This document shows positions 5,426 to 19,242 of a DNA stretch of 47,573 nucleotides, piece by piece; position 1 is the first letter of the stretch, and the number at the start of each line of letters is the position of its first letter. This stretch comes from an uncultured Eubacteriales bacterium. Its GTDB lineage: Bacteria; Acidobacteriota; Aminicenantia; Aminicenantales; UBA4085. The position numbers and the translations under genes are program-made. The notes below the pieces were generated by a model. The model searched no databases. It saw only the letters and a list, made by a program, of their open reading frames with translations, and was not told the origin of the DNA. The DNA lies in assembly GCA_964411395.1 (NCBI GenBank), contig CAYPKX010000005.1:2958-50530 (forward strand), written 5' to 3'.

Positions 5426-7462
5426 ATGAGCGCCTGGGGGCAAACGAAACCGCTGCGGCTGCTGTTTTTCGCCGCCGTCGTCCTCCCCTGCCTCGTCCTG
5501 GCTGTCCTGGCTTTCCGGTCGCTCGACCGGGAGGAAGTGATCCTGGAGCGGCGTCTCCAGGGAACGCTGGATGCGGAGCTCATCCACGCCGTCTCCCTGA
5601 TGCAGGACGAGCTGGGGAGGATCCGGGAGGAATTGACCTCGACGGCTCCGGCCGAGACGAGTTTGAGCCCTCAGCGGGAACTGAGCGCCTGGAAATTAAA
5701 ATCCGCGCTCGTCGGCGCTCCGTTTGTCCTTTCGGCGGACTTCCGGATCCTCTGGCCGACGCGCGATCAGTTCCTGGCCCAAAGCGACCTGGATTTCCTC
5801 AATTGGAACCGGGAATTCGTCACCGACCGCACCCCCACTCCGATCTATGAAAATGCCGCCCTCGCTTTCAAGGATCAGATCGCGGATCCGTTCCCGGCCG
5901 GGGCCGGAAAGACGGACGTCCTCGGCGCCGGACAAAAAGCGGAGATGGCGGCCGCCCTCCCGGGGCCGGTCGCGGTTCAAGAGCGGGTCGCTTCGGACAA
6001 GAAGACGGAAGAAGCCAAACCCGCCCCCCCGGCCGCGGCCGGAAACCGGGTCCAAACCGGCGCGGCGCTTTCCGCTTCATCCGAAAAAGATGGCGCCGTA
6101 CGGGCCAAAGGGAAATCCAACGTCGCCGACGTCCAGGTGGCCCAGCAAGCCCTGGCCGAATTCGAGCAAAGCGACGAGCTCCGCAAGCGGGTTTACGACG
6201 AGGCCGCCCGACAGGGGAAAAAAACCGAATCCCGGACGGTGACCCCCGGCGCGGCCGCGGCCCGGAACGCCGCCCCTTCGCGATCCGAATCCGTCTTCAT
6301 TTCCGACTTGCTCCGCTTCAGCCAGATTACGGCCGGGAACGATGCCGGCCTCGTGCCCCGGTTCATCGAGGACCGGCTCACCCTTCTTTTTTGGCGAAAG
6401 GAGGCCTCCGGCCGGATCGTCGGATGCCTGGTCGAGGATCAAGCGGCCCGGGGACGGTTATTGTCCCGGCTGCCGGCGGCTTATTCGCCCGTCCGGATTC
6501 TGACCGTTCTGGACGAGAACGGCCGGCCGTTGGTCACGCCGGAGTCGGAATCCGGGCGGGATTGGCGGCGGCCGCTTGTCGCCCGCGAGGTGAGCGAGCT
6601 TTTACCCCGGTGGGAAGCGGTCGCCTATCCGACCGACCCGGGCGCGCTGGCCGCCCGGGCGAAAACAACCCGCCTTCTTCTGGCCGCCGTCCTTCTGGGA
6701 TTGTGCCTGCTCATCGCCGCCGCCGGACTGGTCATTCTCAACACGCTCCGAAGCGAAATGGTCCTGGCCCGGCAGAAGACGACGTTTGTGACCAATGTCT
6801 CCCATGAACTCAAAACGCCGCTGACCTCGATCCGGATGTTTTCGGAAATGCTCAAAGAGGGCCGCCAGCCGGATGTCGGAAAGCAGCGGGCATATCTCGG
6901 GCTGATGCTGGCCGAGACCGAGCGACTGACTCGCCTGATCAACAACGTTCTGGATTTTTCCAGGATGGAAAAAGGGAAAAGAGCCTATGCCAAAGGCCGG
7001 CTGGCGATCGGTCCGCGGATCGGGGAAATCGCGGCCAGGGAGAAAGTCCGGCTGGAACAGCTCGGTTTCGAGGTGACGTTCGCCGACTTCTCGGAGGGGG
7101 CTTTTGTCCTGGCTGACGAGGAAGCCCTGGGGCAAGCCGTCCTGAATCTCCTCTCGAACGCCGAAAAATATTCTCCCGAAACCAAGCGCCTTGAAATCGA
7201 GGTTTCGCGGTCCGGCGGATTCGTCCGCATCGAGGTCCGGGACCGGGGCGTCGGCATCCCGCCGGCTGCCGCCGGGAAGATTTTTAAGGAATTCTTCCGG
7301 GTCGACCAATCGCTGGCCGCTCCGGTTTCGGGTTCGGGGCTGGGCTTGACCATCGCCCGCCGGATCATCCGGGACCACGGCGGAGACATCGAATACCGGC
7401 CGCGCGAAGACGGAGGATCGATTTTTACGATGAGTTTGCCCGAAGCGAAGGACGCCTCATGA
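5426..7462 (+). CDS. Sensor histidine kinase with large extracytoplasmic domain
   Basis: 678 aa. N-terminal TM, then a ~380-aa region that includes an Ala/Pro/Lys-rich low-complexity stretch, then a second TM (LLLAAVLLGLCLLIAAAGLVIL). H-box VSHELKTPLTSI, N box LLSNAEKYS, G boxes DRGVGI and GSGLGL. Confidence 0.85.
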   Translation: MSAWGQTKPLRLLFFAAVVLPCLVLAVLAFRSLDREEVILERRLQGTLDAELIHAVSLMQDELGRIREELTSTAPAETSLSPQRELSAWKLKSALVGAPFVLSADFRILWPTRDQFLAQSDLDFLNWNREFVTDRTPTPIYENAALAFKDQIADPFPAGAGKTDVLGAGQKAEMAAALPGPVAVQERVASDKKTEEAKPAPPAAAGNRVQTGAALSASSEKDGAVRAKGKSNVADVQVAQQALAEFEQSDELRKRVYDEAARQGKKTESRTVTPGAAAARNAAPSRSESVFISDLLRFSQITAGNDAGLVPRFIEDRLTLLFWRKEASGRIVGCLVEDQAARGRLLSRLPAAYSPVRILTVLDENGRPLVTPESESGRDWRRPLVAREVSELLPRWEAVAYPTDPGALAARAKTTRLLLAAVLLGLCLLIAAAGLVILNTLRSEMVLARQKTTFVTNVSHELKTPLTSIRMFSEMLKEGRQPDVGKQRAYLGLMLAETERLTRLINNVLDFSRMEKGKRAYAKGRLAIGPRIGEIAAREKVRLEQLGFEVTFADFSEGAFVLADEEALGQAVLNLLSNAEKYSPETKRLEIEVSRSGGFVRIEVRDRGVGIPPAAAGKIFKEFFRVDQSLAAPVSGSGLGLTIARRIIRDHGGDIEYRPREDGGSIFTMSLPEAKDAS

Positions 7463-8160
7463 AAGAAACGATCTTGATCGTCGAAGACGACCCGTCCATT
7501 CTGACCGGACTGGAGGATCTCCTGGCCGGCGAGGGATTCGAAATCCGGACGGCCCGGGATGGAAAAGCGGCCCTTCGGGCCTGGCAGTCGGACAAGCCGG
7601 CCTTGATACTCCTGGATGTCATGATCCCGGAAAAGAGCGGCCTGGACGTCTGCCGGGAGATCCGCCTCAAAGACGCCCTGACGCCGATTATCATGCTGAC
7701 CGCCAAGGGGCGGGAAACGGACAAGGTCATCGGCCTGGAACTCGGGGCGGACGATTACATCGTCAAGCCCTTCGCCATCGGCGAGCTTCTGGCCCGGATT
7801 CGGGCCGCCCTTCGCCGGGCCGCGGCCCGGGAAGAGGGGAAGAAAGATACCCGCCCGATCGAATTCGGCGATGTCCGGATCGACCCCAAAACGTTCACGG
7901 GCTCGAAACGCGGAAAGATTTTCGACGTCACGGCCCGGGAAATCGAGCTCCTGCGGTATTTTTCCGTCCACGCCGGCGAGGTGGTCGAACGCTTTACTCT
8001 GTTGGACGAGATCTGGGGCGTCCGCTATGAAGGGACGACCCGGACTTTGGACCAGCATGTCGCCAAGCTGCGCCAGAAAATCGAAGATGACCCGGCCGCA
8101 CCGCGGTTCATCCTGACGGTCTATGGAGTCGGATACCGTTTTTTCCCGTCCGAATCCTGA
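7459..8160 (+). CDS. OmpR/PhoB-family response regulator
   Basis: 233 aa. ATGA overlap with the kinase stop. Receiver: LIVEDDP, LILLDVMIPEKSG, MLTAK, VKPF. Winged-helix output: TAREIELLRYF, LLDEIWG, TRTLDQHVAKLRQKIE, TVYGVGYRF. Confidence 0.9.
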   Translation: MKETILIVEDDPSILTGLEDLLAGEGFEIRTARDGKAALRAWQSDKPALILLDVMIPEKSGLDVCREIRLKDALTPIIMLTAKGRETDKVIGLELGADDYIVKPFAIGELLARIRAALRRAAAREEGKKDTRPIEFGDVRIDPKTFTGSKRGKIFDVTAREIELLRYFSVHAGEVVERFTLLDEIWGVRYEGTTRTLDQHVAKLRQKIEDDPAAPRFILTVYGVGYRFFPSES

Positions 8161-8176
8161 ACGCGATCTTGATTCA

Positions 8177-8206
8177 TTGACAGGGATGGACGGCCGAGTG
8201 TAAAGT
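8177..8206 (+). promoter_or_regulatory. Putative sigma70-type promoter (TTGACA-18-TAAAGT) for the cyclase gene
   Basis: TTGACA at 8177-8182, 18-nt spacer, TAAAGT at 8201-8206. The GTG start at 8218 lies only ~12 nt after the -10 element, and no SD is visible. Confidence 0.35.
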
Positions 8207-8217
8207 ATTTTCGTACC

Positions 8218-11200
8218 GTGTCTCACCCCCGGCGACGGAGTCTAAAAAACGCCTTCTTGATCGCCGGGTGTTTTGTCCTTTTTCCCCTGACCGCCGCGGC
8301 CTCCCTGCCGGAAGTCGAAGATCCGTCCATGGCTTTCGGATTCAAGCCGTATGGAGCCGATCATGGGCTCACCTCCACTTCGATAACGGCCCTGGTTCAG
8401 GATCCGGGCGGTTTTCTCTGGGTCGGGACCGAGGACGGCCTTTTCCGGCTGGAGGGCGAACGATTCCGGCGTTTCGGGACCGAGGAGGGATTGCCTTCCA
8501 ATTCCATCATCGATCTTTCCATCGCCCGGCCTCGCGGAATCTGGATTGAAACCAACAACGGCATCGTCCTGTGGGACGGAGGGCGTTTCCGCCGTCCCAG
8601 CAGCCTCGGGCTTCAGGGATTCGATGATCGTCCCGGCCTCCCTCTTCCGGCCGGCGGTATCATCATCTCCCATTACCAGTCCCAACAGAGATTTTTTTCT
8701 CCCTCCGACGGAAGCGATTTTCTCGAACTGAAAGGATTGCCCTGGGGGGGAGGGGCCTATTCCGCATTTTTCGACCCGGAGCGCAAACTCCTGGTCCTCG
8801 CCCTTATGGACGGGTTTTGGGAATGGAACGGCACAAATTGGAAGAGCCGCGTCCTGTTCGACGCCTCGGTTAAAAACAAAGCCGTCACCTCCGTCTGCAT
8901 CGATCGCCGGGGCCGCTATTGGCTCCGTCAGCCCGAACGGCTTTTTCGCCTCGACCGCTTCGATGCCCCCCTTGTCCAGGTTCCGACACCTGAGCCGTTA
9001 TCGGCGATCAATAGTACTTTTCTGGCCGAAGACGCGCTCGGCCGTATCTGGACGAATACCGCCCGGAGCCTGATCTGGATTTCCGAATCGGGGTCGGGCG
9101 TTCTCGGCGAGCGCCAGGGCCTGCCGCCCGGCGGAGCGTTTGTGTTTTTCATCGATTCCCAGGACACGCTCTGGGCCGGCGGCGACGGCGTCTTCAAGCT
9201 TCTTGGCGATTTTCTCTGGAAATCCTCGACCCGGGCCCAGGGACTTCCCGGCGAGGTCACCTGGTCCGTTTTGCGGACGCGGGACGGAAGGGTCTGGGCG
9301 GGGACGGCCGAAGGACTGGCCTACGGAACGCCGCAGGGATGGCGCATCGTTCCGGGGTCCGAACGGTTTCCGTTCATGGCCCTGTTTGAAGATGCCAAAG
9401 GCGTGGTCTGGGCCGGGCATTCTCCGCTGAGCGAAACGACCTCCGGTATTCTGAAAATTCTGCCGGGCCGGACCGAGGCCCGGCCCGTCGCGATCAGCGG
9501 CGGCAAGCTGACGAGCGTCGTTTGCGGAATCGCCCAGGGTCCCGGGGATTCGCTCTGGCTGGCAACGACTCTTTCCGGCTTGTACCGGGCTTTCCCGGAA
9601 CCGGGCGGCCTTAAGATCGAAGCCTTGGAAATCCCGGGCTGGCCGGCTTCCGAAGGGGCTATCTTGAATATCGCCGGCGACGGTTCCGGCGGGCTCTGGG
9701 TGGCCGGAGATCCGGGGGCCGCTCACTGGGACGGGAGGTCCTGGGCGGTACTTCCGAAACAAAGCCTTCGCGACCAGAATATGATCTCTGTTTTGCCGAT
9801 CGGTCCGGACAGCGCCTGGCTGGCGCCGAAAAACGGCAAGCAGCTCTCCCGCATTCTGAGGGAAGGATCCGTCCTTCGCCTGACCGAAACGCTTCCCCGG
9901 GCCCATCCGCTCTCCCAGGCGCTGATTTTCGGCCTGGGCCGGGACTCCCGGGGAGTGATCTGGGTGGCCACGGCCCGCGGACTCCTGCGCTGGGAAAACG
10001 GCCGGGTCGAGAAATACGGACGCAACGCCGGTCTCCCCGGCGAGGATTGCGCTCAGAACGCCCTCTGGGTGGACCCGAACGGCGATGTCTGGGCCGGCCT
10101 CAGCGTCGGACTGGCTCACGGGGAGATGAGACTCTGGAGCGAGCCGCAGCGTCCACCGCCGGCGGCCATACTGGACGCCAGGGATGGAGCCGATCGTTCC
10201 CTCTTCGATATCGGACCCGAGACGGCTATTCCCTGGAAAGTCAGCAGCGTGTTCTTCCGTTTCGCTGCGCGCGGCTCCAAGTGGACGGAGGGAATCGGCT
10301 TCCAGGTCCGGCTTGTGGGGCTGGAGGATGCCTGGCGGACCACGGATGTCAATGAAGCGCGTTATCCCAAGCTTCCCGCCGGGCATTACCGCTTCGAAGT
10401 CCGGACCTTCTCGGCGGCCAGGGAATTCGGTACCGCCGAGGGCGTCGATTTCTGGATCATCGCCCCATGGTGGCGGCGGTGGTGGGCTCAAGTGATCTGG
10501 AGCCTGCTCTTTCTTGGATTGGTCGGGCTTGTCTTTTGGCGCCGCACGAAGGTTCTCCGCCGCCGGAATGAATTTCTCGAGGCCATGATCGAAGCCCGGA
10601 CCGGGGAACTGGAGCAGGCTAACGAGGCGCTGCGTGAAGCCGTTCTGATCGATCCGCTGACGGGACTGTACAACCGCCGGTACCTGACCATCACCATGCC
10701 CGAAGAGGAAGCCCGTCTGCGCCGGATGTTCCGCAACTACTTCATGAAAGGCATCAGTCCGCTGAATCAGAACGAGGATTTGATCCTCTTCCTCGGCGAT
10801 ATGGATCATTTCAAGACGGTCAACGATACGCACGGTCATGCCGCGGGCGACCTGATGATCCAGGAGACGGCCAAGGTGTTGAAAAGCGTCTGCCGGACGG
10901 CGGATACTCTTGTCCGCTGGGGCGGCGAAGAGTTCATCCTGGTCGCCCGGCGCTCGGACCGGGAAAAAGCCGGATTGATCGCCGAAAAATTGTGCCAGGC
11001 GGTTCGAGAACATGAACTGACCCTGCCGGCCGGTCCCGTCCTCCGCTGTACGATTTCGTTCGGCTTCGCCGCCTTTCCCATCCTGGATCAGCACCCCGAA
11101 GCGTTCACCTGGGAAGACACGCTCCAGTTGGCCGACCAGTGCCTTTATGAAGCGAAGAACGCCGGTCGGAACGGATGGGTGGGTGTCCTGGCCACCGGTC

Positions 11201-11313
11201 CCCTGAATACTCCCGAGTATGCTCCCCGGCTCCGCTCCGACTTGAAGGGTTTGATCCGGGAAAGCCAGGTCCTGGTCGAATCGAGCTTCCCTCCGGATCG
11301 GGTTTTCCGCTAA
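8218..11313 (+). CDS. Membrane-anchored beta-propeller / Y_Y_Y sensor diguanylate cyclase (GGDEF)
   Basis: 1031 aa with a GTG start. N-terminal anchor NAFLIAGCFVLFPLTAAAS. Many propeller-type repeats (GFLWVGTEDGL, DTLWAGGDGV, GRVWAGTAEGL, GVIWVATARGL). Y_Y_Y-like segment YPKLPAGHYRFEVR, TM VIWSLLFLGLVGLVFW, coiled coil, then a GGDEF domain with GGEEF and an RTAD (RxxD) I-site 5 residues upstream. Confidence 0.85.
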   Translation: MSHPRRRSLKNAFLIAGCFVLFPLTAAASLPEVEDPSMAFGFKPYGADHGLTSTSITALVQDPGGFLWVGTEDGLFRLEGERFRRFGTEEGLPSNSIIDLSIARPRGIWIETNNGIVLWDGGRFRRPSSLGLQGFDDRPGLPLPAGGIIISHYQSQQRFFSPSDGSDFLELKGLPWGGGAYSAFFDPERKLLVLALMDGFWEWNGTNWKSRVLFDASVKNKAVTSVCIDRRGRYWLRQPERLFRLDRFDAPLVQVPTPEPLSAINSTFLAEDALGRIWTNTARSLIWISESGSGVLGERQGLPPGGAFVFFIDSQDTLWAGGDGVFKLLGDFLWKSSTRAQGLPGEVTWSVLRTRDGRVWAGTAEGLAYGTPQGWRIVPGSERFPFMALFEDAKGVVWAGHSPLSETTSGILKILPGRTEARPVAISGGKLTSVVCGIAQGPGDSLWLATTLSGLYRAFPEPGGLKIEALEIPGWPASEGAILNIAGDGSGGLWVAGDPGAAHWDGRSWAVLPKQSLRDQNMISVLPIGPDSAWLAPKNGKQLSRILREGSVLRLTETLPRAHPLSQALIFGLGRDSRGVIWVATARGLLRWENGRVEKYGRNAGLPGEDCAQNALWVDPNGDVWAGLSVGLAHGEMRLWSEPQRPPPAAILDARDGADRSLFDIGPETAIPWKVSSVFFRFAARGSKWTEGIGFQVRLVGLEDAWRTTDVNEARYPKLPAGHYRFEVRTFSAAREFGTAEGVDFWIIAPWWRRWWAQVIWSLLFLGLVGLVFWRRTKVLRRRNEFLEAMIEARTGELEQANEALREAVLIDPLTGLYNRRYLTITMPEEEARLRRMFRNYFMKGISPLNQNEDLILFLGDMDHFKTVNDTHGHAAGDLMIQETAKVLKSVCRTADTLVRWGGEEFILVARRSDREKAGLIAEKLCQAVREHELTLPAGPVLRCTISFGFAAFPILDQHPEAFTWEDTLQLADQCLYEAKNAGRNGWVGVLATGPLNTPEYAPRLRSDLKGLIRESQVLVESSFPPDRVFR

Positions 11314-12485
11314 TCGCTTGAAGGAATCTTCTCGCCGTATTTTTGAATAAAGCCGGCCAGGTCCCTGGCCGCCCGGCGGGCGATGTTTTCCAGGTAACCG
11401 GCCGCCCGGGCCATCGCGTCTTCGAGCGAGGCGGCTTCCGGAAGGATGGGATAGACAGCGGCGAAAAGATCCGGGACATAATCCGAAACCGCTCCGGCGA
11501 CGGAGCCGCAGTAAGCGATACAGGGGCGCTTCGTTTCCCGGGCCAGAGCGGAGATTCCCCAAACCGTTTTTCCCCGCCGGGATTGGGAGTCCAGCCGGCC
11601 CTCGCCGGTGATAATCAGGTCGGCCTGTTTTGCTTTCGATTTGATCTCCGCGGCTTCGATCAGGGCTGCGATTCCGGGTCGAAGATCGGCTCCGAGGAGA
11701 GACAACCCGGCGAATCCGAGCCCCCCGGCCGCGCCTGCACCGGGGACGTCGCGAAATTGATGTCCGACGGCCGCCTCGACCGCATCGGCGTATCGCCCGC
11801 CCGTTTCATCCAGAAATCGGACGGTTTCTGTGTCCGCCCCTTTTTGCGGGCCGAAAACCGCAGCGGCGCCGCGCGGCCCGAGTAGCGGATTATCGACATC
11901 GGCCAAAACGGTGAAGCGGATGTGGCGAATCCGGTCATCGAGCCCTCCAAGGTCGACGGATCGAACCGCGGCCAAATCGAACGGGCGGGGACTGAGGGAT
12001 TGTCCTCCGGCATCAAGAAAGCGGACCCCCAATTCAGCCGCCATCCCCGCGCCCCAGTCATTGGTCGCAGAACCGCCGAGTCCGATCCAAATCCGTTCCG
12101 GTTTCCGGTCGAGGGCGGACTTGATCTGCCGCCCCAGGCCTGCGGTGTTGGCGTGAAGGATGTCCGTCCTCGGCGCGACCAGAGTCAAGCCGCAGGTTTG
12201 GGCCGATTCGAAGAGAATGACCTTTCGGTCCGGCAGAAGGAGCGACTCGGCCCTCACGGGATCGCCGAACGGTCCCGGTGCGGCGGCAAAGAATATTTCT
12301 CCGCCGCAGGCCGAGGCAAAAGCGTCGATCGTTCCTTCGCCGCCGTCGGCCGTCGGAATAATCTCGATCTCCGCTTGAAGTCCGATTTCGGAAAAGCCGG
12401 AACGAATCCCGGCGGCGATCGCCGCTCCCGCTTCGGCCGAGCCGAGGGATCCCTTGAAGCTGTCGACGGCGATCAAAACGCGCAT
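11310..12485 (-). CDS. Glycerate kinase (Gly_kinase family)
   Basis: 391 aa. N-terminus MRVLIAVDSFKGSLGSAEAG and the overall pattern match the GlxK/GarK family as I recall it. SD GGAG ~9 nt upstream. Lies 18 nt downstream of the LarA-like gene. Confidence 0.85.
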   Translation of the reverse strand: MRVLIAVDSFKGSLGSAEAGAAIAAGIRSGFSEIGLQAEIEIIPTADGGEGTIDAFASACGGEIFFAAAPGPFGDPVRAESLLLPDRKVILFESAQTCGLTLVAPRTDILHANTAGLGRQIKSALDRKPERIWIGLGGSATNDWGAGMAAELGVRFLDAGGQSLSPRPFDLAAVRSVDLGGLDDRIRHIRFTVLADVDNPLLGPRGAAAVFGPQKGADTETVRFLDETGGRYADAVEAAVGHQFRDVPGAGAAGGLGFAGLSLLGADLRPGIAALIEAAEIKSKAKQADLIITGEGRLDSQSRRGKTVWGISALARETKRPCIAYCGSVAGAVSDYVPDLFAAVYPILPEAASLEDAMARAAGYLENIARRAARDLAGFIQKYGEKIPSSD

Positions 12486-12503
12486 CGGTCGAATCTCCGA
12501 CGG

Positions 12504-13817
12504 CTACGAGACGAGCGTCTCCGCTTCGGGAACGCAATACGGCCCCTCGGGAAAAACGGCCAGCCGTCCCCCTCCGGCCAAAGCTTCGTCGAGAACGGCC
12601 TGAACGGCCGGTCCGAGCCTGCCCCGCTCGGCGGCATGCCCGGTCAGGGTCAGCCCTGTTAGCGTCGAGGCCGACAGGCCGTCCGAGACGAAGTGCAGTC
12701 CGTGCGGCCCGACTTTTTCCAAAGCCCGGGCCTGCATCTGGAGCTCCCACTGGTCCCTGGTGAAGACACCCGGTTGGTTGATGTCGGCCAGGAAGTCGTT
12801 GAAGCGCCCTGCATATTTTTTTAAAAGATCGGCGTACTCGCGGCTCCCGAGGCCTTCAGAGCAGGTCCCGAAAGCGATGATCGTTCCGCCTTCACGAACG
12901 GCCGGGAGACACGAAACGAATCCCTTGACGCATTGGTAAAACGTCGCATCGAGAGGATATCCGCCGCAACCCGTCAGCACGATATCGGCCGGCTGCCGGA
13001 CCGGCCAGACGGCGCAGGACCGGACATAGTCGCAGGCCGCCTCGTGAGCCGGCTCGAGCGCCCCGGCATAGGCCCGGACCAGGCGGCGGGACCGGTCGAG
13101 AACGACATTGAGGGAGAAGTCGACGCCGGCGGCCCGGGCGACGGAAAGGGATTCTTCGTGAAGGGGATTTCCGGCCAGGACGGCGTTGGTCGCCCGCGGG
13201 TCGGCCAGCAGTTTCGCCCCGTGGAAGTTGCGGACGGTGTCGATCGAGGAAAGGCCGGGGCAGACCGCTTTCCTTCCCCCGGAGTAGCCGGCCATGAAAT
13301 GCGGCTCCACCAGACCAGTCACGAGACGGAAACCGGCTTCGACGAAACGCCGGTTCAGCCGGATGGTCGCCCCGGTGGCGCTCCGTCCGGCGACGGCGGC
13401 CAGGCCGAGGGGATCCTCCGCTCGGTGGTCTTCGATCCGGTAGCGTTCGATGACTTCCTCGCCGAACATTTCCCGCCGTTCTTCGCCGGTGCTCGGCCGG
13501 TGCATGCCCGTGGCCACAAGAACGAGGATTTCAGACCGGGGGACGCCGGCCGAGGCGATTTCGGCCAGAAGCGGCGCCAGAAAATCCCGGTAGGGAATGG
13601 GCCGGGTGAAATCCGAGACGACGACGACAACGTCTCCCGTCCGCCGGCCGGCCAACGCGGTCCGAAGCGGCGCCGTTCCGAGAGGAGCCCGGACGGCGTC
13701 CAGAACGAGGGAGACCGCCGGTTTGATCGTAACGGGGTAGGCTGTGACATACAGCTCGGCGTCGCCCGGAATCCGGAGGATGATCTCCTCCCGTCCGGCC
13801 GGCGCCCTCACGTCCAT
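12504..13817 (-). CDS. LarA-family nickel-pincer-nucleotide-dependent 2-hydroxyacid racemase/epimerase homolog
   Basis: 437 aa. Motifs ATGMHRP, EPH-x7-GGRK and NFHG. The His/Lys/His spacing (+10, +16) equals L. plantarum LarA His174/Lys184/His200 as I recall, and the upstream His sits 67 residues before it (66 in LarA). ATG is 5 nt after the valS stop. Confidence 0.8.
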   Translation of the reverse strand: MDVRAPAGREEIILRIPGDAELYVTAYPVTIKPAVSLVLDAVRAPLGTAPLRTALAGRRTGDVVVVVSDFTRPIPYRDFLAPLLAEIASAGVPRSEILVLVATGMHRPSTGEERREMFGEEVIERYRIEDHRAEDPLGLAAVAGRSATGATIRLNRRFVEAGFRLVTGLVEPHFMAGYSGGRKAVCPGLSSIDTVRNFHGAKLLADPRATNAVLAGNPLHEESLSVARAAGVDFSLNVVLDRSRRLVRAYAGALEPAHEAACDYVRSCAVWPVRQPADIVLTGCGGYPLDATFYQCVKGFVSCLPAVREGGTIIAFGTCSEGLGSREYADLLKKYAGRFNDFLADINQPGVFTRDQWELQMQARALEKVGPHGLHFVSDGLSASTLTGLTLTGHAAERGRLGPAVQAVLDEALAGGGRLAVFPEGPYCVPEAETLVS

Positions 13818-13822
13818 TGGTC

Positions 13823-16800
13823 TTATGATCCGATGTCCCGGAGGCCCGCGTCAAGGGCTTCGATCTGGGCCCGGCCTTCCTGGAGCTTTTTCCGCTCTTT
13901 TTCGACGACATCGGCCGGAGCCCGGGCGATGAATCCTTCATTGCCCAGCTTGGACTCGATCTTGTTGATGTCTTCGACGAGCTTGATCCGCTTGGCCGTC
14001 AAACGCTCTCGCTCCTTGGCCGGGTCGATCAGTCCGGGGACGAAAATCTCCTGGTTCCCGACGACTTGGACGGAGGCGCCGGACGGACGGGCGACGCCGG
14101 GACCGGCTTCGAGCGACTGGAGGTTGGCCAGGTGAAGGATCAGCGGCCGGAGCCGTCCAAGAACTTCCGCTTCTTTATCGGATGTCCGGACGGAGACGGT
14201 CAGCTTGATCCCGGGGGAGGTGCCGTGGCGGGCACGAAGGTCGCGGATGGCCCGGACGAGATCGAAGGCGAGGCCGAAATCCGCTTCGAGCGCGTCCTCT
14301 TCCCATTGGGGATGGGGAGCGGGCCAGGCGGCTTGGAGGAGCAGGGGGGACGTCGGGAGCGGGGCGATCAAGCCGCGGACCGGGCACTGGACGTTCAAAC
14401 GCTCCCACAGTGCCTCGGTGATGAACGGGACAAAGGGATGGAGGAGACGCAGAATATGATCGAAGGCCAGGGCCAGGACGGAGCGGGCCTTGGGGGCCGC
14501 CGCGTCGTCCCGCATCCGGGGTTTGATGATTTCGAGATAGCGGTCGCACAGGTCGCCCCAGAAAAAGTCGCGGGCCGCGCCGACGGCGGCCGAGGGATTG
14601 TAGGCCCGAAGCTCATCGTCCACCTTCCGGATGACCTTGGAAAGACGGGAGAGGATCCAGCGGTCCTCTTCAGCCAGTTCGGAGCCCGGGAGCGGCCGGA
14701 ACGGATGATCGCCCAGGTTTTGGAACATGAACCGGGCCGCGTTCCACAGCTTGGTGCAGAAGGCCCGGCCGATCTCGAAGCGCTCGCTGATGATCCTGGC
14801 CGCCGGCAGGTCGGGCATGGTTCCGAGAACGTCGAATTCCTTGCCGGTTTTCGGGTCGATGTAGGTGAAAATCGACCGGCCGTGCCTGGCCGTGGCCAGA
14901 TCGACGAGTTCCCCGGTGAAGGGGGAAACGGCCTGGACCGGGAGGCGGATGTCCTGAGTCCCCGTCTGCATATCGCACAGAACGTAGCGCATGGCGTCCG
15001 TCCCGTATTTTTCGATGATATCTTCGGGGTCGATTCCGTTGCCCTTGCTTTTGGACATCCGTTCGCCCTTGCCGTCCTGGATGTTGGCGTGAATAAAGCT
15101 CGCGGTGAAGGGGACGTCGCCGCGAAGATAGAGGCCCATGATCATCATTCGGGCAACCCAGAGGGTGATGATGTCGCGGGCGGTGACGAGGCAGGATCCG
15201 GGATAGTAGTAATTCAGGCAGTCGTCGAGGCCGGGTTCCGCGGCGGTAAGAGGGCGCTGCCCGGCGTCGACGGCCGCGGTAGCCGGATCGGGCCAGCCCA
15301 GGGTCGACATCGGCCAGAGGGCCGAACTGAACCAGGTGTCGAGAACATCGGGGTCCCGGGCCAGGCCGGCGGCGGCGAGCCGGTCGGCTTGCCCGGCTTC
15401 GGCCGCTTCGGTGCGGAACGAGACCAGGATCGAATAATTCCGATCGGGAACAAGGCCGGAAAGGGAAGAGGCAGGGTAGGAGTTGCCGGCGTCGTCGGCG
15501 ATCCAGGTGTGCATATCTTCCGTTTCGGTCCGGGCCAGGCCGGCGATGATTCCCGGAATTGCGGCTCCCGGAAAGGCGGCGTGCCAAATCGGGATGCGGT
15601 GGCCCCACCACAGCTGGCGGCTGATGCACCAATCGCGCTTTTCTCCGAGCCAGGCCCGAAAGGTGCCGCCGTAGCGTTCGTCGTCCGGGGCGAAAGCCAG
15701 TCGGCGTCCGGTCGCCGATCGATATCCGGGAAGAGAGGCTTCGATGGCCGCCTGGGCCAGGCCGTGGGCCTGGAATTCGTTGGCCGTGCCCTTGCCGCAG
15801 ACGATGCCTCCCGGAATATCGCCCATCCGGATGAACCACTGCTTGCTGAGGTAGGGCTCAATCGGCGTTTTCGACCTGTCGGAATGGCCGACTTCCATTT
15901 CCCGGTCCTCGACGGATTCGAGCCGTCCGGCGGATTTCAGGTCGGCCACAACCCGCTTGCGGACTTCGAAGCGGTCGAGTCCGGCGTAAGGCCCGGCGGC
16001 GGCGTTGAGCGTCCCGTCGGGATTCAGGATATTGATAATCCCGATCTCAGCCTTGTGGCGCTCCCAGACGGCGTAGTCGTTGGGATCGTGGGCCGGGGTG
16101 ATCTTGACACAACCGGTGCCAAGGGCGGGGTCGGCCCATTCGTCCAGGATGAGAGGAAGGGAGCGGTGAAGGAGCGGCAGGTCGATTCGGCGGCCGTTGA
16201 GGGCCATGTCCCGAAGCTTCAAGAGCCCGGGCAGGATGTCTTCGCGCCGGGCCAGGAGGTTTTCAAGCGACTTTTCCAGCTCGACCCGGTCTTTCTTCGA
16301 GGCGGTTTCGATCTTGTCCTGGAGCTCCGCGATCCGGCGTTCGATTTCGCCGTCCGGGTCCGGGTGGACGGCGACGGCCGTGTCGCCGAGCATGGTTTCG
16401 GGACGGGTCGTGGCCACGATGACGAATTCCGGCTCGCCTGGTTTGCGGTCGATGATGGGGTAACGGATGTGCCAGAAATGACCCCGAACGGTCTCGTGGA
16501 CGATTTCGTCGTCGGAAACGGCCGTCTGGAGCTGGCAGTCCCAGTTGACCAGACGATCGCCTCGGTAGATCAATCCGTCGGCGAAGAGGCGGAAAAACGC
16601 TTCCCGGACGGCTCGGGCGCAGACGGCGTCCATGGTGAAGCGTTGGCGCTTCCAGTCGCAGGAACAACCCATGCTCTGCTGTTGGCGGATGATTCGGGCC
16701 TGGTACTCGTCTTTCCAGGTCCAGATCCGGGCGACCAGGGCTTCCCGTCCCAGATCGTGGCGGGTTTTGCCTTCGAGCTCGAAGAGCCGCTTTTCGACGA

Positions 16801-17077
16801 CCGCTTGCGTGGCGATGCCGGCGTGGTCGGTCCCCGGCATCCAGAGGGTGTTGTCTCCGGCCATCCGGTGCCAGCGGATGAGGAGGTCCTGCATCACGTT
16901 GTCCATGGCATGGCCCATGTGCAGGGCGCCGGTGACGTTCGGCAGGGGCATCATGATGACGTAGCGGCCGGCCCGGCCGTCGGGGACGGCGGCGAAGGCG
17001 TCGGCTTCGAGCCAGCGTTCCGTGATCCGGCGCTCGTATTGAGCCGGCTCGTACAGTTTCGGGATCTCATCCGCCAT
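13823..17077 (-). CDS. valS: Valine--tRNA ligase
   Basis: 1084 aa. HIGH-type motif HMGHA in PNVTGALHMGHAMDN and KMSKS-type motif RMSKSKGN. ValRS-like N-terminus (KLYEPAQYERRITERW), DTWFSS, and a C-terminal coiled coil. Confidence 0.95.
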   Translation of the reverse strand: MADEIPKLYEPAQYERRITERWLEADAFAAVPDGRAGRYVIMMPLPNVTGALHMGHAMDNVMQDLLIRWHRMAGDNTLWMPGTDHAGIATQAVVEKRLFELEGKTRHDLGREALVARIWTWKDEYQARIIRQQQSMGCSCDWKRQRFTMDAVCARAVREAFFRLFADGLIYRGDRLVNWDCQLQTAVSDDEIVHETVRGHFWHIRYPIIDRKPGEPEFVIVATTRPETMLGDTAVAVHPDPDGEIERRIAELQDKIETASKKDRVELEKSLENLLARREDILPGLLKLRDMALNGRRIDLPLLHRSLPLILDEWADPALGTGCVKITPAHDPNDYAVWERHKAEIGIINILNPDGTLNAAAGPYAGLDRFEVRKRVVADLKSAGRLESVEDREMEVGHSDRSKTPIEPYLSKQWFIRMGDIPGGIVCGKGTANEFQAHGLAQAAIEASLPGYRSATGRRLAFAPDDERYGGTFRAWLGEKRDWCISRQLWWGHRIPIWHAAFPGAAIPGIIAGLARTETEDMHTWIADDAGNSYPASSLSGLVPDRNYSILVSFRTEAAEAGQADRLAAAGLARDPDVLDTWFSSALWPMSTLGWPDPATAAVDAGQRPLTAAEPGLDDCLNYYYPGSCLVTARDIITLWVARMMIMGLYLRGDVPFTASFIHANIQDGKGERMSKSKGNGIDPEDIIEKYGTDAMRYVLCDMQTGTQDIRLPVQAVSPFTGELVDLATARHGRSIFTYIDPKTGKEFDVLGTMPDLPAARIISERFEIGRAFCTKLWNAARFMFQNLGDHPFRPLPGSELAEEDRWILSRLSKVIRKVDDELRAYNPSAAVGAARDFFWGDLCDRYLEIIKPRMRDDAAAPKARSVLALAFDHILRLLHPFVPFITEALWERLNVQCPVRGLIAPLPTSPLLLQAAWPAPHPQWEEDALEADFGLAFDLVRAIRDLRARHGTSPGIKLTVSVRTSDKEAEVLGRLRPLILHLANLQSLEAGPGVARPSGASVQVVGNQEIFVPGLIDPAKERERLTAKRIKLVEDINKIESKLGNEGFIARAPADVVEKERKKLQEGRAQIEALDAGLRDIGS

Positions 17078-17142
17078 GGTCGTTTCCTTTATCGTCGATG
17101 GCGAACCCTGTTTTTACCCTAAGCGGGCCGGGTTGCCAAAAC

Positions 17143-17154
17143 GGGGGGGGGGGG
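17143..17154. repeat. Homopolymeric G12 (C12 on the valS strand) tract
   Basis: Counted directly: 12 consecutive G at 17143-17154. The tract begins 66 nt upstream of the valS ATG (17077) and ends 5 nt before the stop codon (17160-17162) of the nucleotidyltransferase-fold gene. Confidence 0.9.
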
Positions 17155-17159
17155 ATCGA

Positions 17160-17651
17160 CTATACTAATTTTTTTTTCCTGGCCGACTCCAGGTAAATCA
17201 GGTCTTCGCGGTCCTTTCCTCGGGAAACGGAGCGTTTGTTCTTTATCAAAGCGTCGAGGCCGATGTAGGGCACGGGAACGGTTTCTTCTCCCGCCTCAAA
17301 CGAGTCCATAACTTTCGTTTTCCATGCTTCGCCGAAGGATACGCCTGTTATCGAATTCATCAGATCAATCCGGTTTGGAGGGAGTCCGAATTGGAACACG
17401 GCGTGTGGTTCCCTCAGGTCCTCCGGTTCATCGATCCCCGGAATCGATCCGCCCCAGAATTCCCGAAGAGCCTGGAACATTCGACCGGCGTTGGTCTTGG
17501 ACGGTTCGAAAAAAAAGTCGACGTCGCCCGTCCCTCTCGCCAAACCGTGATAAATGACGGCTTCTCCCCCGACGATGAGAAAACGGACCTTATAATGGGA
17601 AAGAAGGCGGATAAACGCCCTCGTATCTCTCGAGAAGTGCCCGGGATTCAT
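17160..17651 (-). CDS. Nucleotidyltransferase-fold protein (minimal Pol-beta-like; DUF6036-like by recollection)
   Basis: 163 aa. The segment FLIVGGEAVIYHGLARGTGDVDFFF fits the hG[GS]-x(9-13)-DhD nucleotidyltransferase signature. The ATG overlaps the stop of a 56-aa upstream ORF (ATGA). Confidence 0.6.
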   Translation of the reverse strand: MNPGHFSRDTRAFIRLLSHYKVRFLIVGGEAVIYHGLARGTGDVDFFFEPSKTNAGRMFQALREFWGGSIPGIDEPEDLREPHAVFQFGLPPNRIDLMNSITGVSFGEAWKTKVMDSFEAGEETVPVPYIGLDALIKNKRSVSRGKDREDLIYLESARKKKLV

Positions 17652-17818
17652 GCCCTCGGCCGGACGGCCCGCACGTCGGGCTGATTTGCTCCGTACAGCC
17701 GTCGCTTGATGATCCGGGCCGCCCGTTGGCGTTGGGCCGGGGTCATCGAAATGTTTTGTTCGACATCCCGACGGCCGGCTTCAAGGAAACTTCGGGCGAT
17801 GATGACGACTTTTTTCAT
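17648..17818 (-). CDS. Small partner ORF (56 aa) of the nucleotidyltransferase-fold gene
   Basis: Not in the ORF track (<60 aa); translated by hand as MKKVVIIARSFLEAGRRDVEQNISMTPAQRQRAARIIKRRLYGANQPDVRAVRPRA. The 4-nt ATGA overlap with the downstream gene suggests translational coupling. The MTP..R...A......R.LYG pattern resembles small ORFs I recall upstream of (or fused to) such NTases. No SD at canonical distance. Confidence 0.4.
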   Translation of the reverse strand: MKKVVIIARSFLEAGRRDVEQNISMTPAQRQRAARIIKRRLYGANQPDVRAVRPRA

Positions 17819-17854
17819 ATGATCCGTCCGTCTTTGATTGTCTCCTCCCTGTTA

Positions 17855-18034
17855 TTATAGCAGAAACGGTGGAGACGGACGCCCGCTTTTTTCGACCCAG
17901 GCCCGCCTCCCCAGGTCCGTCAGGCGGGCGGCCAAGGCTTCTTCCTTGGATTTCAGATCGCCCTGTCCGCGGCTGAGCGATTTCCTCCGGATCCGTTCTT
18001 TTTTTCCCTCGGCGAAGATTTGCTTGAGACTCAT
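17855..18034 (-). CDS. Hypothetical small ORF (59 aa)
   Basis: Hand-translated as MSLKQIFAEGKKERIRRKSLSRGQGDLKSKEEALAARLTDLGRRAWVEKSGRPSPPFLL. Weak SD (GAAGG 7 nt upstream). Same strand as the two downstream genes. No recognisable family. Confidence 0.2.
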   Translation of the reverse strand: MSLKQIFAEGKKERIRRKSLSRGQGDLKSKEEALAARLTDLGRRAWVEKSGRPSPPFLL

Positions 18035-18105
18035 GGGAAGACCTTCAACTCAAACGGAATTGGACGACAACTACAGAATAATCTCCAAGGCGGCGTATCC
18101 CTGGC

Positions 18106-19242
18106 CTAAATCTTCGTCATGGTCTCCCGGTAGACGACGCCGCGTTCGCGGAGGCCGTCGAGCATGAATTTCACGCACTCCGGCCGGCGGCCGATGTATT
18201 CGGGCGGGATGATCCCCTTGTCGTTGAACAATCCGCCGGCCAGAAGCCGCAAGGCGCAGGAGGCGGTGTAGCCGGTCGTCCGGGCCATGGAATGAACGCC
18301 GGTGACGGGATCGCGCCGGTCGAGGAGGTCGTAGGTATAGCGCAGCGTCTCCTTGCCGCGGCGGCCTTCGACGATGATTTTCATGACGGTGAGGTCGGTC
18401 TCGCCCTCCTGGAGCTTCCATTTGGGAAAGAGAAGCCGGGAGGTGACGTCCAGAGGTTTGACCTTGACGCTGCCGACTTCGATTTCTTCGGTCCCGAAGA
18501 ATCCGGTTTCCCGGAGCATGGCCATCTTCTCGATGTGCCCGGGGTAGCGAAGCGTTTTCTCCTTCATGTCGGGAGCCGAGAGAGTTCGAGCGAGGGTTCG
18601 CAGCCCGTCGGTATTGAAGGCCTCGAGCGTCCCGACGCCCGGGAATTCCAGGCGTTCGGGTTCGGACAGGGCGGGTTTGACGATCAGGGCGCCGTTTTGG
18701 ATATACCGGGCCGGCCGGACGTATTCCTCGAGGACGTCGACCGGCGAGAACACGGCTTTGTATTCGAAGGGCCACTCACGGATTTCGGGGAGACCGCCGA
18801 CGTAGATCAGGACGGAATGGGTTTCGTCCAGGAGCGAAGAGACGTGGCCGGCGAGAAGATTCGACATTCCCGGAGCGACGCCGCAATCGACGATCGCGGT
18901 GACGCCGGCCGCCAGCGCCATATCCCGGAGGTCGAAAGGATCTTCGGGAAAGAAGGCGATGTCGACGACGCTTTTCCCGGCCGAAATGACGGCCTTGAGC
19001 GTCTGAAAACCCATGAAGCCGGGGACGGCGCTCAAGACCAGGTCGTGGCTCCGAACGAGCTTGGTGACCGTTTTGGGATCGGAGAGATTGACCTGGACGG
19101 TGGCAATGTTTTTCGCCCCGGCCAGCCGGGCGAACGCTTCGGAATCGTGATCGGCGACGGTGACGTTGAATCGGGAATCGGCGGCCAAATCCAGAGCGGT
19201 CGGGGCTCCGACGAGGCCCGACCCCAAGACGAGAATTTTCAT
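18106..19242 (-). CDS. Saccharopine dehydrogenase-family NAD(P) oxidoreductase
   Basis: The ATG at 19242 gives MKILVLGSGLVGAPTALDLA (Rossmann GxGxxG) with SD AAGGAG upstream; the ORF-track start at 19299 adds 19 residues with no support. The overall pattern resembles the Sacchrp_dh_NADP/_C family. Confidence 0.75.
   Translation of the reverse strand: MKILVLGSGLVGAPTALDLAADSRFNVTVADHDSEAFARLAGAKNIATVQVNLSDPKTVTKLVRSHDLVLSAVPGFMGFQTLKAVISAGKSVVDIAFFPEDPFDLRDMALAAGVTAIVDCGVAPGMSNLLAGHVSSLLDETHSVLIYVGGLPEIREWPFEYKAVFSPVDVLEEYVRPARYIQNGALIVKPALSEPERLEFPGVGTLEAFNTDGLRTLARTLSAPDMKEKTLRYPGHIEKMAMLRETGFFGTEEIEVGSVKVKPLDVTSRLLFPKWKLQEGETDLTVMKIIVEGRRGKETLRYTYDLLDRRDPVTGVHSMARTTGYTASCALRLLAGGLFNDKGIIPPEYIGRRPECVKFMLDGLRERGVVYRETMTKI

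What the first reader, a model, noticed from the sequence alone, without database searches (positions are those of the whole stretch)
11310..13817. LarA homolog with intact nickel-pincer residues, coupled to glycerate kinase and co-transcribed with valS
The 437-aa protein keeps the residues that I recall define functional LarA: His in ATGMHRP, then EPH-x7-GGRK-x15-H. The spacing reproduces His174/Lys184/His200 of the L. plantarum lactate racemase (NPN-tethering Lys and Ni-binding His).

Its ATG lies 5 nt after the valS stop, and glycerate kinase follows 18 nt later. This implies one valS-larA-like-glycerate kinase transcript.

LarA homologs are known to racemise or epimerise various 2-hydroxyacids. 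Pairing with a D-glycerate-specific kinase suggests a glycerate (or related 2-hydroxyacid) racemase/epimerase that feeds the kinase. I do not recall this activity being described. No larB/larC/larE cofactor-synthesis genes are in the window.
Basis: partly seen in the sequence, partly recalled or inferred. Interest (0 to 1): 0.6.

Follow-up and report, generated by a model that had tools for sequence, protein, structure and literature searches.

The report
Nickel racemase paired with glycerate kinase
An intact nickel-cofactor hydroxy-acid racemase sits in a conserved gene pair with a glycerate kinase behind the valine-tRNA ligase gene, and probably turns L-glycerate into the D-form that the kinase feeds into glycolysis; the chemistry was shown in vitro in 2024, so only the natural role is new.

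Summary
valS (13823-17077), a 437-aa LarA homolog (12504-13817) and a class I glycerate kinase (11310-12485) lie head to tail on the minus strand, with 5-nt and 18-nt gaps. All catalytic and nickel-pincer (NPN) binding residues are intact.

The genome carries larC, larE and larB on other contigs; larB is split by an assembly gap. The protein belongs to LarA Group 2 (short-chain racemases). It sits in an uncharacterised subclade, sister to the Isosphaera pallida enzyme (39% identity).

The LarA-kinase pair looks like a real unit:
- It is kept in every close relative examined (LarA at 67% identity or more), with and without valS.
- Of 151 genomes of the same class, only this genus has either gene.
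- The kinase forms its own clade, and every member of known context is LarA-linked.
- Unrelated glycerate kinases pair with LarA homologs in Bacteroidota and Lentisphaerota.

Glycerate racemisation by LarA homologs was published in 2024-2025.

Best reading: an L-glycerate to D-glycerate to phosphoglycerate route. A main role on lactate or another small 2-hydroxyacid is not excluded. Interest is moderate.

The parts
13823..17077 (-). valS, valine-tRNA ligase (1084 aa), first gene of the inferred transcript
   Evidence: NCBIfam PRK05729 949 bits against a cut-off of 704; TIGR00422 821 bits. Pfam tRNA-synt_1, Anticodon_1 and Val_tRNA-synt_C. Relatives at 79-85% identity keep it directly upstream of LarA.
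13818..13822 (-). 5-nt spacer (GACCA) between the valS stop codon TAA and the LarA start codon ATG
   Evidence: Sequence read. The same junction is 5-44 nt long in relatives. That leaves no room for a terminator plus a promoter.
12504..13817 (-). LarA-family NPN-dependent 2-hydroxyacid racemase (437 aa), Group 2/SAR-like. Own numbering: His106, His173, Phe174, Met175, Lys183, His199, Tyr294, Gln295, Lys298, Arg354, Trp357, Glu358.
   Evidence: Pfam Lar_N plus LarA_C. NCBIfam Ni_dep_LarA 339 bits, below the 460 cut-off. Best solved structure is 9eia, I. pallida LarA, E 1e-85. Residue table, tree, identities.
12486..12503 (-). 18-nt spacer with a GGAG ribosome-binding motif before the kinase start codon
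   Evidence: Sequence read.
11310..12485 (-). Class I glycerate kinase (GlxK/GarK family, 391 aa), last gene of the unit
   Evidence: Pfam Gly_kinase 399 bits over profile positions 1-370 of 372. TIGR00045 366 bits against a cut-off of 168. Below the equivalog cut-offs for both the 2-kinase and the 3-kinase. No MOFRL-class glycerate kinase was found in the genome, so no second glycerate kinase was detected.
8218..11313 (+). Convergent Reg_prop/GGDEF diguanylate cyclase whose stop overlaps the kinase stop by 4 nt. It marks the 3' boundary of the unit and is not part of it.
   Evidence: The same convergent gene follows the kinase, directly or after one short gene, in relatives L095, L097, L100 and L103.

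Best explanation
The 437-aa protein is a functional nickel-pincer-nucleotide (NPN) dependent 2-hydroxyacid racemase of the LarA superfamily (Group 2, short-chain type). With the glycerate kinase downstream it forms a two-gene unit. The racemase interconverts L- and D-glycerate by proton-coupled hydride transfer to the NPN cofactor. The D-specific kinase then pulls the equilibrium by phosphorylating D-glycerate to 2- or 3-phosphoglycerate, which enters lower glycolysis.

The pair was acquired as a unit by an ancestor of this genus of Aminicenantes (class Aminicenantia of Acidobacteriota). It was inserted directly behind valS and is most likely read from the valS transcript, so it is expressed constitutively and not as an inducible catabolic operon.

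Shown here: gene order, intact residues, presence of the cofactor genes, conservation of the pair, and its independent recurrence.

Inferred: that glycerate is the main substrate, the direction of flux, D-specificity of the kinase, and co-transcription.
For: 1. All defining LarA residues are present: Asp72, Arg75, His108, His174, Lys184, His200, Tyr294, Gln295 and Lys298 in L. plantarum numbering.

2. The cofactor genes are in the genome:
- larC at C55, 433 bits.
- larE at C80, 322 bits against a cut-off of 150.
- larB in two pieces at the end of C262 and the start of C72, 159 + 87 bits against a cut-off of 175.

3. This is the only Lar_N gene found in the genome. No second glycerate kinase was found either: there is no MOFRL-class kinase and only one class I hit.

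4. The pair is kept in every close relative with enough flanking sequence: L015, L016, L040, L095-L098, L100-L105 and G125. Their LarA identity is 67-86%. Three of them lie in contexts without a detectable valS: L098 next to fucosidase and SSF-transporter genes, L105 with a 4-nt LarA/kinase overlap followed by rpmB, and L040.

5. Phyletic co-occurrence: of 151 genomes of the class, only the window's genome and G125 (same genus) have this LarA, and only these two have a close kinase. Three others have a kinase at 36-38% identity and no LarA homolog at E <= 1e-30.

6. On the kinase tree, a 99%-supported clade of 10 holds only LarA-linked kinases wherever the context is known.

7. Kinases from other branches pair with LarA homologs of the same LarA clade in Tannerellaceae (L027, convergent), a Bacteroidetes MAG (L039, same strand) and Lentisphaerota (L031, kinase upstream). 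Well-supported branches force at least two independent pairings.

8. Glycerate kinase is the most frequent neighbour in the clade: 7 of about 40 members including the window, against 0 of 39 in the sister clade.

9. Glycerate racemisation is a measured activity of LAR and Group 2 enzymes (PMC11770544, PMC11851776).

10. The residue that contacts the C-alpha substituent (Gln357 in I. pallida) is Glu358 here. It could accept a hydrogen bond from a CH2OH group.
Against: No assay exists for any member of this subclade among the references I could obtain.

The characterised enzymes nearest in sequence prefer lactate or 2-hydroxybutyrate over glycerate (I. pallida LarA, PMC11851776). LarAH51, which also has Glu at the position equivalent to Thr359, prefers lactate tenfold (PMC11770544).

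Most members of the wider clade (about 33 of 40) have no glycerate kinase within 10 kb, and one relative at 65% identity lacks it (L099). The clade as a whole is therefore not tied to glycerate.

No source of L-glycerate and no transporter is encoded nearby. In L039 the pair sits in a hexuronate/KDG operon, where a larger sugar acid could be the substrate.

Co-transcription with valS is untested. A weak promoter-like match (9 of 12 positions) lies at 13854-13825 inside the valS 3' end, but such matches were no more frequent than in shuffled sequence.
Confidence: 0.55

Rival explanations
1. The enzyme is mainly a lactate or broad short-chain aliphatic 2-hydroxyacid racemase, like I. pallida LarA. 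The kinase link would then reflect only a side activity on glycerate or shared regulation.
For: Best matches are lactate racemase models and I. pallida LarA. The pocket signature F-M-W-E is the LAR/SAR type; PMC11770544 states that LARs usually have F, F, W, E/Q. I. pallida LarA and LarAH51 both prefer lactate (PMC11851776, PMC11770544). Most clade members lack a kinase neighbour.
Against: No lactate permease was found in the 90%-complete genome, and no lactate-related gene lies beside the racemase. The pair is co-inherited, co-transferred and re-formed with unrelated kinases. That is hard to explain if glycerate were incidental.
Confidence: 0.25
2. The enzyme is a C2-epimerase or racemase of a larger polyhydroxy acid (a C4-C6 aldonate such as threonate/erythronate, or mannonate/gluconate). 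The kinase would act on glycerate released further downstream, or on that acid itself.
For: In the Bacteroidetes MAG L039 the pair lies within RraA-like aldolase, UxuA, LarA, Gly_kinase, PfkB kinase, KDPG aldolase and MFS transporter genes. The own clade carries a conserved Lys/Arg at the position of L. plantarum Pro355, absent from the characterised Group 1 and Group 2 enzymes compared. LAR enzymes epimerise 4-deoxy-threonate and 4-deoxy-erythronate weakly (PMC11770544).
Against: In the window and its close relatives no sugar-acid gene accompanies the pair. The pocket residues match short-chain racemases and not the gluconate epimerase signature E, V, A, H (PMC11770544). The NCBIfam hexonate-epimerase model scores only 21 bits.
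Confidence: 0.12
3. The adjacency has no functional meaning. Two unrelated genes landed behind valS and have since been inherited together.
For: The valS context is limited to one genus-level group. No regulator or transporter ties the genes together.
Against: The pair persists in contexts without a detectable valS (L098, L105, L040). It was formed independently with distantly related kinases in at least two further lineages. Glycerate kinase is the top neighbour in the clade and is absent from 39 sister-clade loci.
Confidence: 0.05

Closest known systems
LarA of Isosphaera pallida (LarAH2 / Sar; PDB 9EIA, 9EID, 9EIF; Group 2 of Desguin et al. 2020)
   Same: Same two-domain fold family, the same catalytic and NPN-binding residues, and Met at the second pocket position after the catalytic His. 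It is the best solved-structure match (E 1e-85) and sits in the same 97%-supported Group 2 clade. It racemises L-glycerate in vitro (PMC11851776).
   Different: Only 39% identical and in the sister subclade. The pocket has Phe174 and Glu358 where I. pallida has Leu174 and Gln357, and Arg354 where I. pallida has Val. The 2020 survey found no conserved gene context for Group 2, whereas this protein is locked to a glycerate kinase.
LarAH43 of Enterocloster asparagiformis (LAR group; PMC11770544)
   Same: An NPN-dependent racemase for which glycerate is at least as good a substrate as lactate (kcat/KM 1.1e5 against 0.8e5 M-1 s-1). It is the published precedent for the proposed reaction.
   Different: It belongs to the LAR group, whose usual pocket is F, F, W, E/Q, with Gln at the Thr359-equivalent position. 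The window protein has F, M, W, E and lies in Group 2. I could not obtain the LarAH43 sequence, so the distance between the two was not measured.
Lactate racemase LarA of Lactiplantibacillus plantarum (PDB 5HUQ; NCBIfam NF033504)
   Same: Mechanistic archetype: His108/His174 acid-base pair, Lys184-tethered NPN and His200 nickel ligand. All are conserved here.
   Different: 34% identity. Scores 339 bits against the 460-bit equivalog cut-off. A different clade. Not encoded in a larABCDE operon; here the lar genes are scattered over other contigs.
Class I glycerate kinases GlxK/GarK (PF02595, TIGR00045)
   Same: Full-length member of the family, above the curated cut-offs.
   Different: It belongs to a separate, LarA-linked clade at 48% identity or less to Pseudomonas and Bacillus kinases. 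It is not next to glyoxylate, glucarate or allantoin genes as in E. coli (general knowledge). Whether it makes 2- or 3-phosphoglycerate is unresolved.

Membership tests
LarA superfamily (NPN-dependent 2-hydroxyacid racemases/epimerases) | Lar_N plus LarA_C domain architecture | tested here: met
   PF09861 170 bits and PF21113 66 bits, both above their cut-offs.
LarA superfamily (NPN-dependent 2-hydroxyacid racemases/epimerases) | Two catalytic histidines (His108, His174 of L. plantarum) | tested here: met
   His106 and His173 align to them.
LarA superfamily (NPN-dependent 2-hydroxyacid racemases/epimerases) | NPN-binding residues: Lys184 tether, His200 nickel ligand, Arg75, Asp72. Substrate-binding residues: Tyr294, Gln295, Lys298. 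| tested here: met
   All are conserved in the MAFFT alignment with 15 reference sequences from Desguin et al. Dataset S2.
LarA superfamily (NPN-dependent 2-hydroxyacid racemases/epimerases) | Cofactor-synthesis genes larB, larC and larE present in the genome | tested here: met
   larC at C55, 433 bits. larE at C80, 322 bits against a cut-off of 150. larB split over the end of C262 and the start of C72, 159 + 87 bits; neither piece alone reaches the 175-bit cut-off.
LarA superfamily (NPN-dependent 2-hydroxyacid racemases/epimerases) | Covalent NPN loading and racemase activity | not testable with these tools
   Needs purified protein.
Lactate racemase sensu stricto (Group 1; NCBIfam NF033504 equivalog) | Score at or above the curated 460-bit cut-off | tested here: not met
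   339 bits.
Lactate racemase sensu stricto (Group 1; NCBIfam NF033504 equivalog) | Placement with the Group 1 sequences and a Phe175-Phe176 pocket | tested here: not met
   Group 1 is a separate 100%-supported clade. The pocket here is Phe-Met.
LarA Group 2 / SAR (Desguin et al. 2020) | Phylogenetic placement among the Group 2 reference sequences | tested here: met
   Lies inside the 97% SH-aLRT clade bounded by Pmob_0129, Mahau_0818 and I. pallida LarAH2. It sits in a 99-100%-supported subclade that contains none of those references.
LarA Group 2 / SAR (Desguin et al. 2020) | Pocket signature [F/L]-M ... W-[E/Q] | tested here: met
   F174, M175, W357, E358.
Glycerate-preferring LAR (LarAH43 type) | Gln at the Thr359-equivalent position, proposed to favour glycerate | tested here: not met
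   The residue is Glu358, as in the lactate-preferring LarAH51 (PMC11770544). The rule rests on one enzyme, so it is weak.
Class I glycerate kinase (PF02595 / TIGR00045) | Full-length match above the curated cut-offs | tested here: met
   PF02595 399 bits over profile positions 1-370 of 372; TIGR00045 366 bits against a cut-off of 168.
Class I glycerate kinase (PF02595 / TIGR00045) | Assignment as glycerate 2-kinase or 3-kinase | tested here: inconclusive
   284 bits against a cut-off of 625 (3-kinase) and 260 bits against 686 (2-kinase).
Class I glycerate kinase (PF02595 / TIGR00045) | Specificity for D-glycerate | not testable with these tools
   Assumed from characterised family members (general knowledge).

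The most novel reading that the evidence does not exclude
The LarA-glycerate kinase pair is a mobile two-gene L-glycerate salvage module. It would be the first physiological pathway built on NPN-dependent glycerate racemisation. Its fusion to the housekeeping valS transcript in this genus would mean that it clears L-glycerate formed by side reactions (for example reduction of hydroxypyruvate by L-lactate dehydrogenase-type enzymes) and is not a route for consuming an external nutrient. The clade-specific Lys/Arg at the Pro355-equivalent position (Arg354 here) may tune the pocket for a hydroxylated substituent.
Probability: 0.35. Interest if true: 0.55.

Novelty: new variant of a known kind. 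Interest (0 to 1): 0.42.

Why it matters
LarA homologs are widespread, but for most of them only in-vitro substrate lists exist. The 2024 paper that reported glycerate racemisation states that the physiological meaning is unknown.

A conserved, horizontally mobile and independently re-formed racemase-kinase pair gives a concrete, testable role. It would let bacteria that have only a D-specific kinase use or clear L-glycerate.

It also marks an uncharacterised Group 2 subclade, with Lys/Arg at the Pro355-equivalent position, as a target for assays. And it shows a nickel-cofactor enzyme expressed from a housekeeping aminoacyl-tRNA synthetase operon.

The gain is a pathway assignment. It is not new chemistry.

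Tried and rejected
1. The supplements of Desguin et al. 2020 contain no mention of glycerate kinase, COG1929 or COG2379. Group 2 is listed there with no associated COG.

2. I could not obtain sequences of LarAH42, LarAH43 or LarAH51. The supplement of PMC11770544 holds no accessions, so they are missing from the tree.

4. An empty-site comparison failed. In five genomes of four other genera of the same family, none of the window's flanking genes (LarA, glycerate kinase, GGDEF protein, saccharopine dehydrogenase) is found beside valS. No pre-insertion site could be shown.

5. The promoter and terminator scan of 10800-18500 gave counts no higher than shuffled sequence. I place no weight on the promoter-like match inside the valS 3' end.

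6. The only AIRC-domain hit from the Pfam search (C105) is purE next to purD, not larB. The real larB appeared only with the NCBIfam model.

7. I did not predict a structure. The tools return no coordinates, so the position of Arg354 relative to the substrate could not be measured.

8. I looked for a second conserved partner across the clade. Nothing beyond a glycerol-kinase-type FGGY gene in 4 loci was recurrent.
Full report
**Observation.** The three minus-strand ORFs are as described:
- valS, 13823..17077, 1084 aa.
- The LarA homolog, 12504..13817, 437 aa.
- A glycerate kinase, 11310..12485, 391 aa.

The valS stop and the LarA ATG are separated by the five bases GACCA. The LarA stop and the kinase ATG are separated by 18 bases that contain GGAG. 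The kinase stop overlaps by 4 nt the stop of a convergent Reg_prop/GGDEF gene (8218..11313, + strand), so the unit ends there.

Pfam and NCBIfam confirm the three identities. The LarA homolog scores 339 bits on the lactate racemase equivalog, whose cut-off is 460. It is also below the cut-offs of the malate, LarAH10, LarAH14-16 and hexonate models.

**Is the racemase intact and can it be loaded?** I aligned it with 15 reference sequences of Groups 1-7, taken from Dataset S2 of Desguin et al. 2020. The protein keeps Asp72, Arg75, His108, His174, Lys184, His200, Tyr294, Gln295 and Lys298 (L. plantarum numbering). In its own numbering the key residues are His106, His173, Lys183 and His199.

The genome has 3.6 Mb in 357 contigs and is 89.7% complete. 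It holds one Lar_N gene only. The cofactor genes are present:
- larC on C55, 433 bits.
- larE on C80, 322 bits against a cut-off of 150. It has the SGGVDS PP-loop and three cysteines, CYYC and ACLASR.
- larB in two pieces, one running off the end of contig C262 and one off the start of C72. This is one gene broken by an assembly gap of about 15 residues.

The single AIRC hit found first (C105) is purE, next to purD.

**Which LarA group?** The best solved structure is the broad-spectrum LarA of Isosphaera pallida (9eia, E 1e-85). Identity is 41% to Mahau_0818, 39% to I. pallida LarAH2 and 34% to L. plantarum LarA.

I built a maximum-likelihood tree of 93 sequences. The window protein lies inside a 97%-supported clade bounded by the Group 2 (SAR) references. 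Within it, the protein sits in a 99-100%-supported subclade of 37-40 sequences. Those come from Planctomycetota, Verrucomicrobiota, Lentisphaerota, Bacteroidota, Thermodesulfobacteriota and others, and the subclade contains none of the references. Its sister subclade holds I. pallida LarAH2 and Mahau_0818.

The four positions used by Urdiain-Arraiza et al. to predict specificity (F175, F176, W358, T359) read F, M, W, E here. That is the LAR/SAR type. It is not the malate (H/Q, K), hydroxyglutarate or gluconate type. One feature separates the own subclade from the characterised enzymes compared: Lys/Arg at the position of L. plantarum Pro355 (Arg354 here). Its role is unknown.

**Is the kinase link real?**

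1. *Close relatives.* Every relative with LarA identity of 67% or more and enough flank has the kinase directly downstream. These are L015 (86%), L095/L096 (84%), L103/L104 (79%), L016, L097 and L100-L102 (75%), L105 (69%), L098 (68%) and L040 (67%, with the kinase cut off by the contig end). L098 sits among fucosidase, URO-D and SSF-transporter genes. In L105 LarA overlaps the kinase by 4 nt and is followed by rpmB. No valS is detectable in either, but both contigs are truncated just upstream of or within LarA. One relative at 65% (L099) lacks the kinase.

2. *Phyletic pattern.* Of 151 genomes sampled across the class, only the window's genome and G125 (same genus) carry this LarA. All other LarA homologs there are 43% identical or less. 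Only these two carry a close kinase, and in G125 it is adjacent to LarA. Three other genomes have a kinase at 36-38% identity and no LarA homolog at E <= 1e-30.

3. *Reciprocal view.* The kinase's nearest database relatives (about 45-72% identity) form a block, below which come ordinary Pseudomonas, Bacillus and Desulfitobacterium kinases at 41-48%. All those looked up are LarA-adjacent. On the kinase tree they form a 99%-supported clade.

4. *Independent pairings.* LarA homologs of the same LarA clade are next to kinases from other parts of the kinase tree. In Tannerellaceae (L027) the two genes are convergent. In a Bacteroidetes MAG (L039) they are on the same strand. In Lentisphaerota (L031) the kinase is upstream. 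Well-supported branches force at least two origins of the pairing.

5. *Neighbour census.* Glycerate kinase is the most frequent neighbour in the clade (7 of about 40 members including the window). It is absent from all 39 loci of the sister clade.

The valS-LarA-kinase arrangement itself is confined to the genus-level group. In five genomes of four other genera of the family, none of the window's flanking genes lies beside valS.

**What is already known.**
- Urdiain-Arraiza et al. (J Biol Chem 2024, PMC11770544) measured L/D-glycerate racemisation by LarA1, LarAH51, LarAH43 and LarAH42. LarAH43 is slightly better on glycerate than on lactate. The authors state that the physiological significance remains to be determined.
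- Gatreddi et al. (ACS Catal 2025, PMC11851776) rank L-glycerate third among 14 substrates of I. pallida LarA.
- Desguin et al. 2020 had already named glycerate as a candidate substrate. They found no conserved context for Group 2.

A full-text search found no paper containing "glycerate racemase", and none linking a lactate racemase to a glycerate kinase. Earlier notes of this scan report LarA-kinase pairs in other phyla. They agree with this reading, but they are unchecked and I did not use them as evidence.

**Mechanism proposed.** NPN-loaded LarA abstracts the C2 hydride of L-glycerate onto the pyridinium C4 while His106 or His173 takes the hydroxyl proton. It then returns the hydride to the opposite face of hydroxypyruvate. 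This is the proton-coupled hydride transfer established for the family. The kinase, assumed D-specific like its characterised relatives, phosphorylates D-glycerate and draws the equilibrium towards phosphoglycerate.

In I. pallida LarA the C-alpha substituent points at Leu174, Met175, Trp356 and Gln357. Here these are Phe174, Met175, Trp357 and Glu358. The pocket is small, with a carboxylate that could accept a hydrogen bond from the C3 hydroxyl.

The genome shows no MOFRL kinase and no lactate permease. No transporter lies beside the pair. Together with expression behind valS, this suggests an internal salvage role more than nutrient uptake, but that is inference.

**Weak points.** No enzyme of this subclade has been assayed, as far as I could find. 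LarAH51, which has Glu at the same position, prefers lactate tenfold. Most members of the wider clade have other neighbours. In L038, L045 and L050 these are a radical SAM enzyme (with a weak B12-binding match in L045), a U32 peptidase-like gene, an FGGY kinase and a BNR_2 gene. In L039 the pair is embedded in a hexuronate/KDG operon, which leaves room for a larger sugar acid as substrate.

**Verdict.** This is a new, uncharacterised Group 2 LarA homolog. It is wired to a glycerate kinase as a conserved, mobile pair, which makes it a new variant of a known kind.
- Confidence that it feeds the kinase by racemising glycerate: about 0.55.
- Confidence that it is mainly a lactate or short-chain racemase: about 0.25.
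- Interest: 0.42.

Noticed in passing
genome contigs C262:3049-3207 and C72:1-575 (not in the window): larB is split between the end of one contig and the start of another. The N-terminal part (MKSQLEDLL...ITCAG) runs off the start of C72, and the C-terminal part (VPIIAVPTSVGYG...) begins at the end of C262. This looks like an assembly gap of about 15 residues and not a pseudogene. The two contigs are probably neighbours.
   Followed up: yes
genome contig C80:2619-3833 (not in the window): LarE carries the PP-loop SGGVDS and three cysteines (CYYC and ACLASR). From general knowledge this pattern fits the iron-sulfur-cluster type of LarE, not the sacrificial single-cysteine type of L. plantarum.
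   Followed up: partly
L039:45-7701: A Bacteroidetes MAG has one co-directional cluster: RraA-like aldolase, UxuA-type dehydratase, LarA homolog, glycerate kinase, PfkB kinase, KDPG aldolase and MFS transporter. This places a LarA-kinase pair inside a hexuronate/sugar-acid route.
   Followed up: partly
L045:8463-14034; L038:132-5458; L050:3286-10852: In a KSB1/Calditrichota/Cytophagia subclade the LarA homolog sits with a radical SAM enzyme (L045, L050; weak B12-binding match in L045), a U32 peptidase-like protein (L038, L050), a glycerol-kinase-type FGGY kinase (all three) and a BNR_2 protein (L038, L045). This context is different and unexplained.
   Followed up: partly
window 12756-12758 (codon of Arg354 of the LarA homolog): Lys or Arg at the position of L. 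plantarum Pro355 is nearly invariant in the window's own LarA clade (the exceptions are one Val, one Gln and the poorly aligned L040). In the characterised Group 2 enzymes compared it is Val or Ser, and in Group 1 it is Pro. This is a clade signature of unknown function near the substrate helix.
   Followed up: partly
window 5426-11313 (+ strand): A histidine kinase, an OmpR-type response regulator and a 1031-aa Reg_prop/Y_Y_Y/GGDEF protein form a conserved block convergent on the kinase. The GGDEF gene overlaps the kinase stop by 4 nt. The GGDEF gene and response-regulator genes lie at the same place in relatives; in L095 a peptidase S41 gene is inserted between the kinase and the GGDEF gene.
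   Followed up: partly
window 17160-17651 (- strand): A 163-aa ORF 82 nt upstream of valS on the same strand has no Pfam match. An ORF of identical length occupies the same position in L015.
   Followed up: no
window 13823-17077: valS is long: 1084 aa against model lengths of about 860. The NCBIfam match is broken into 3-4 stretches, which suggests lineage-specific insertions in the catalytic or editing region.
   Followed up: no
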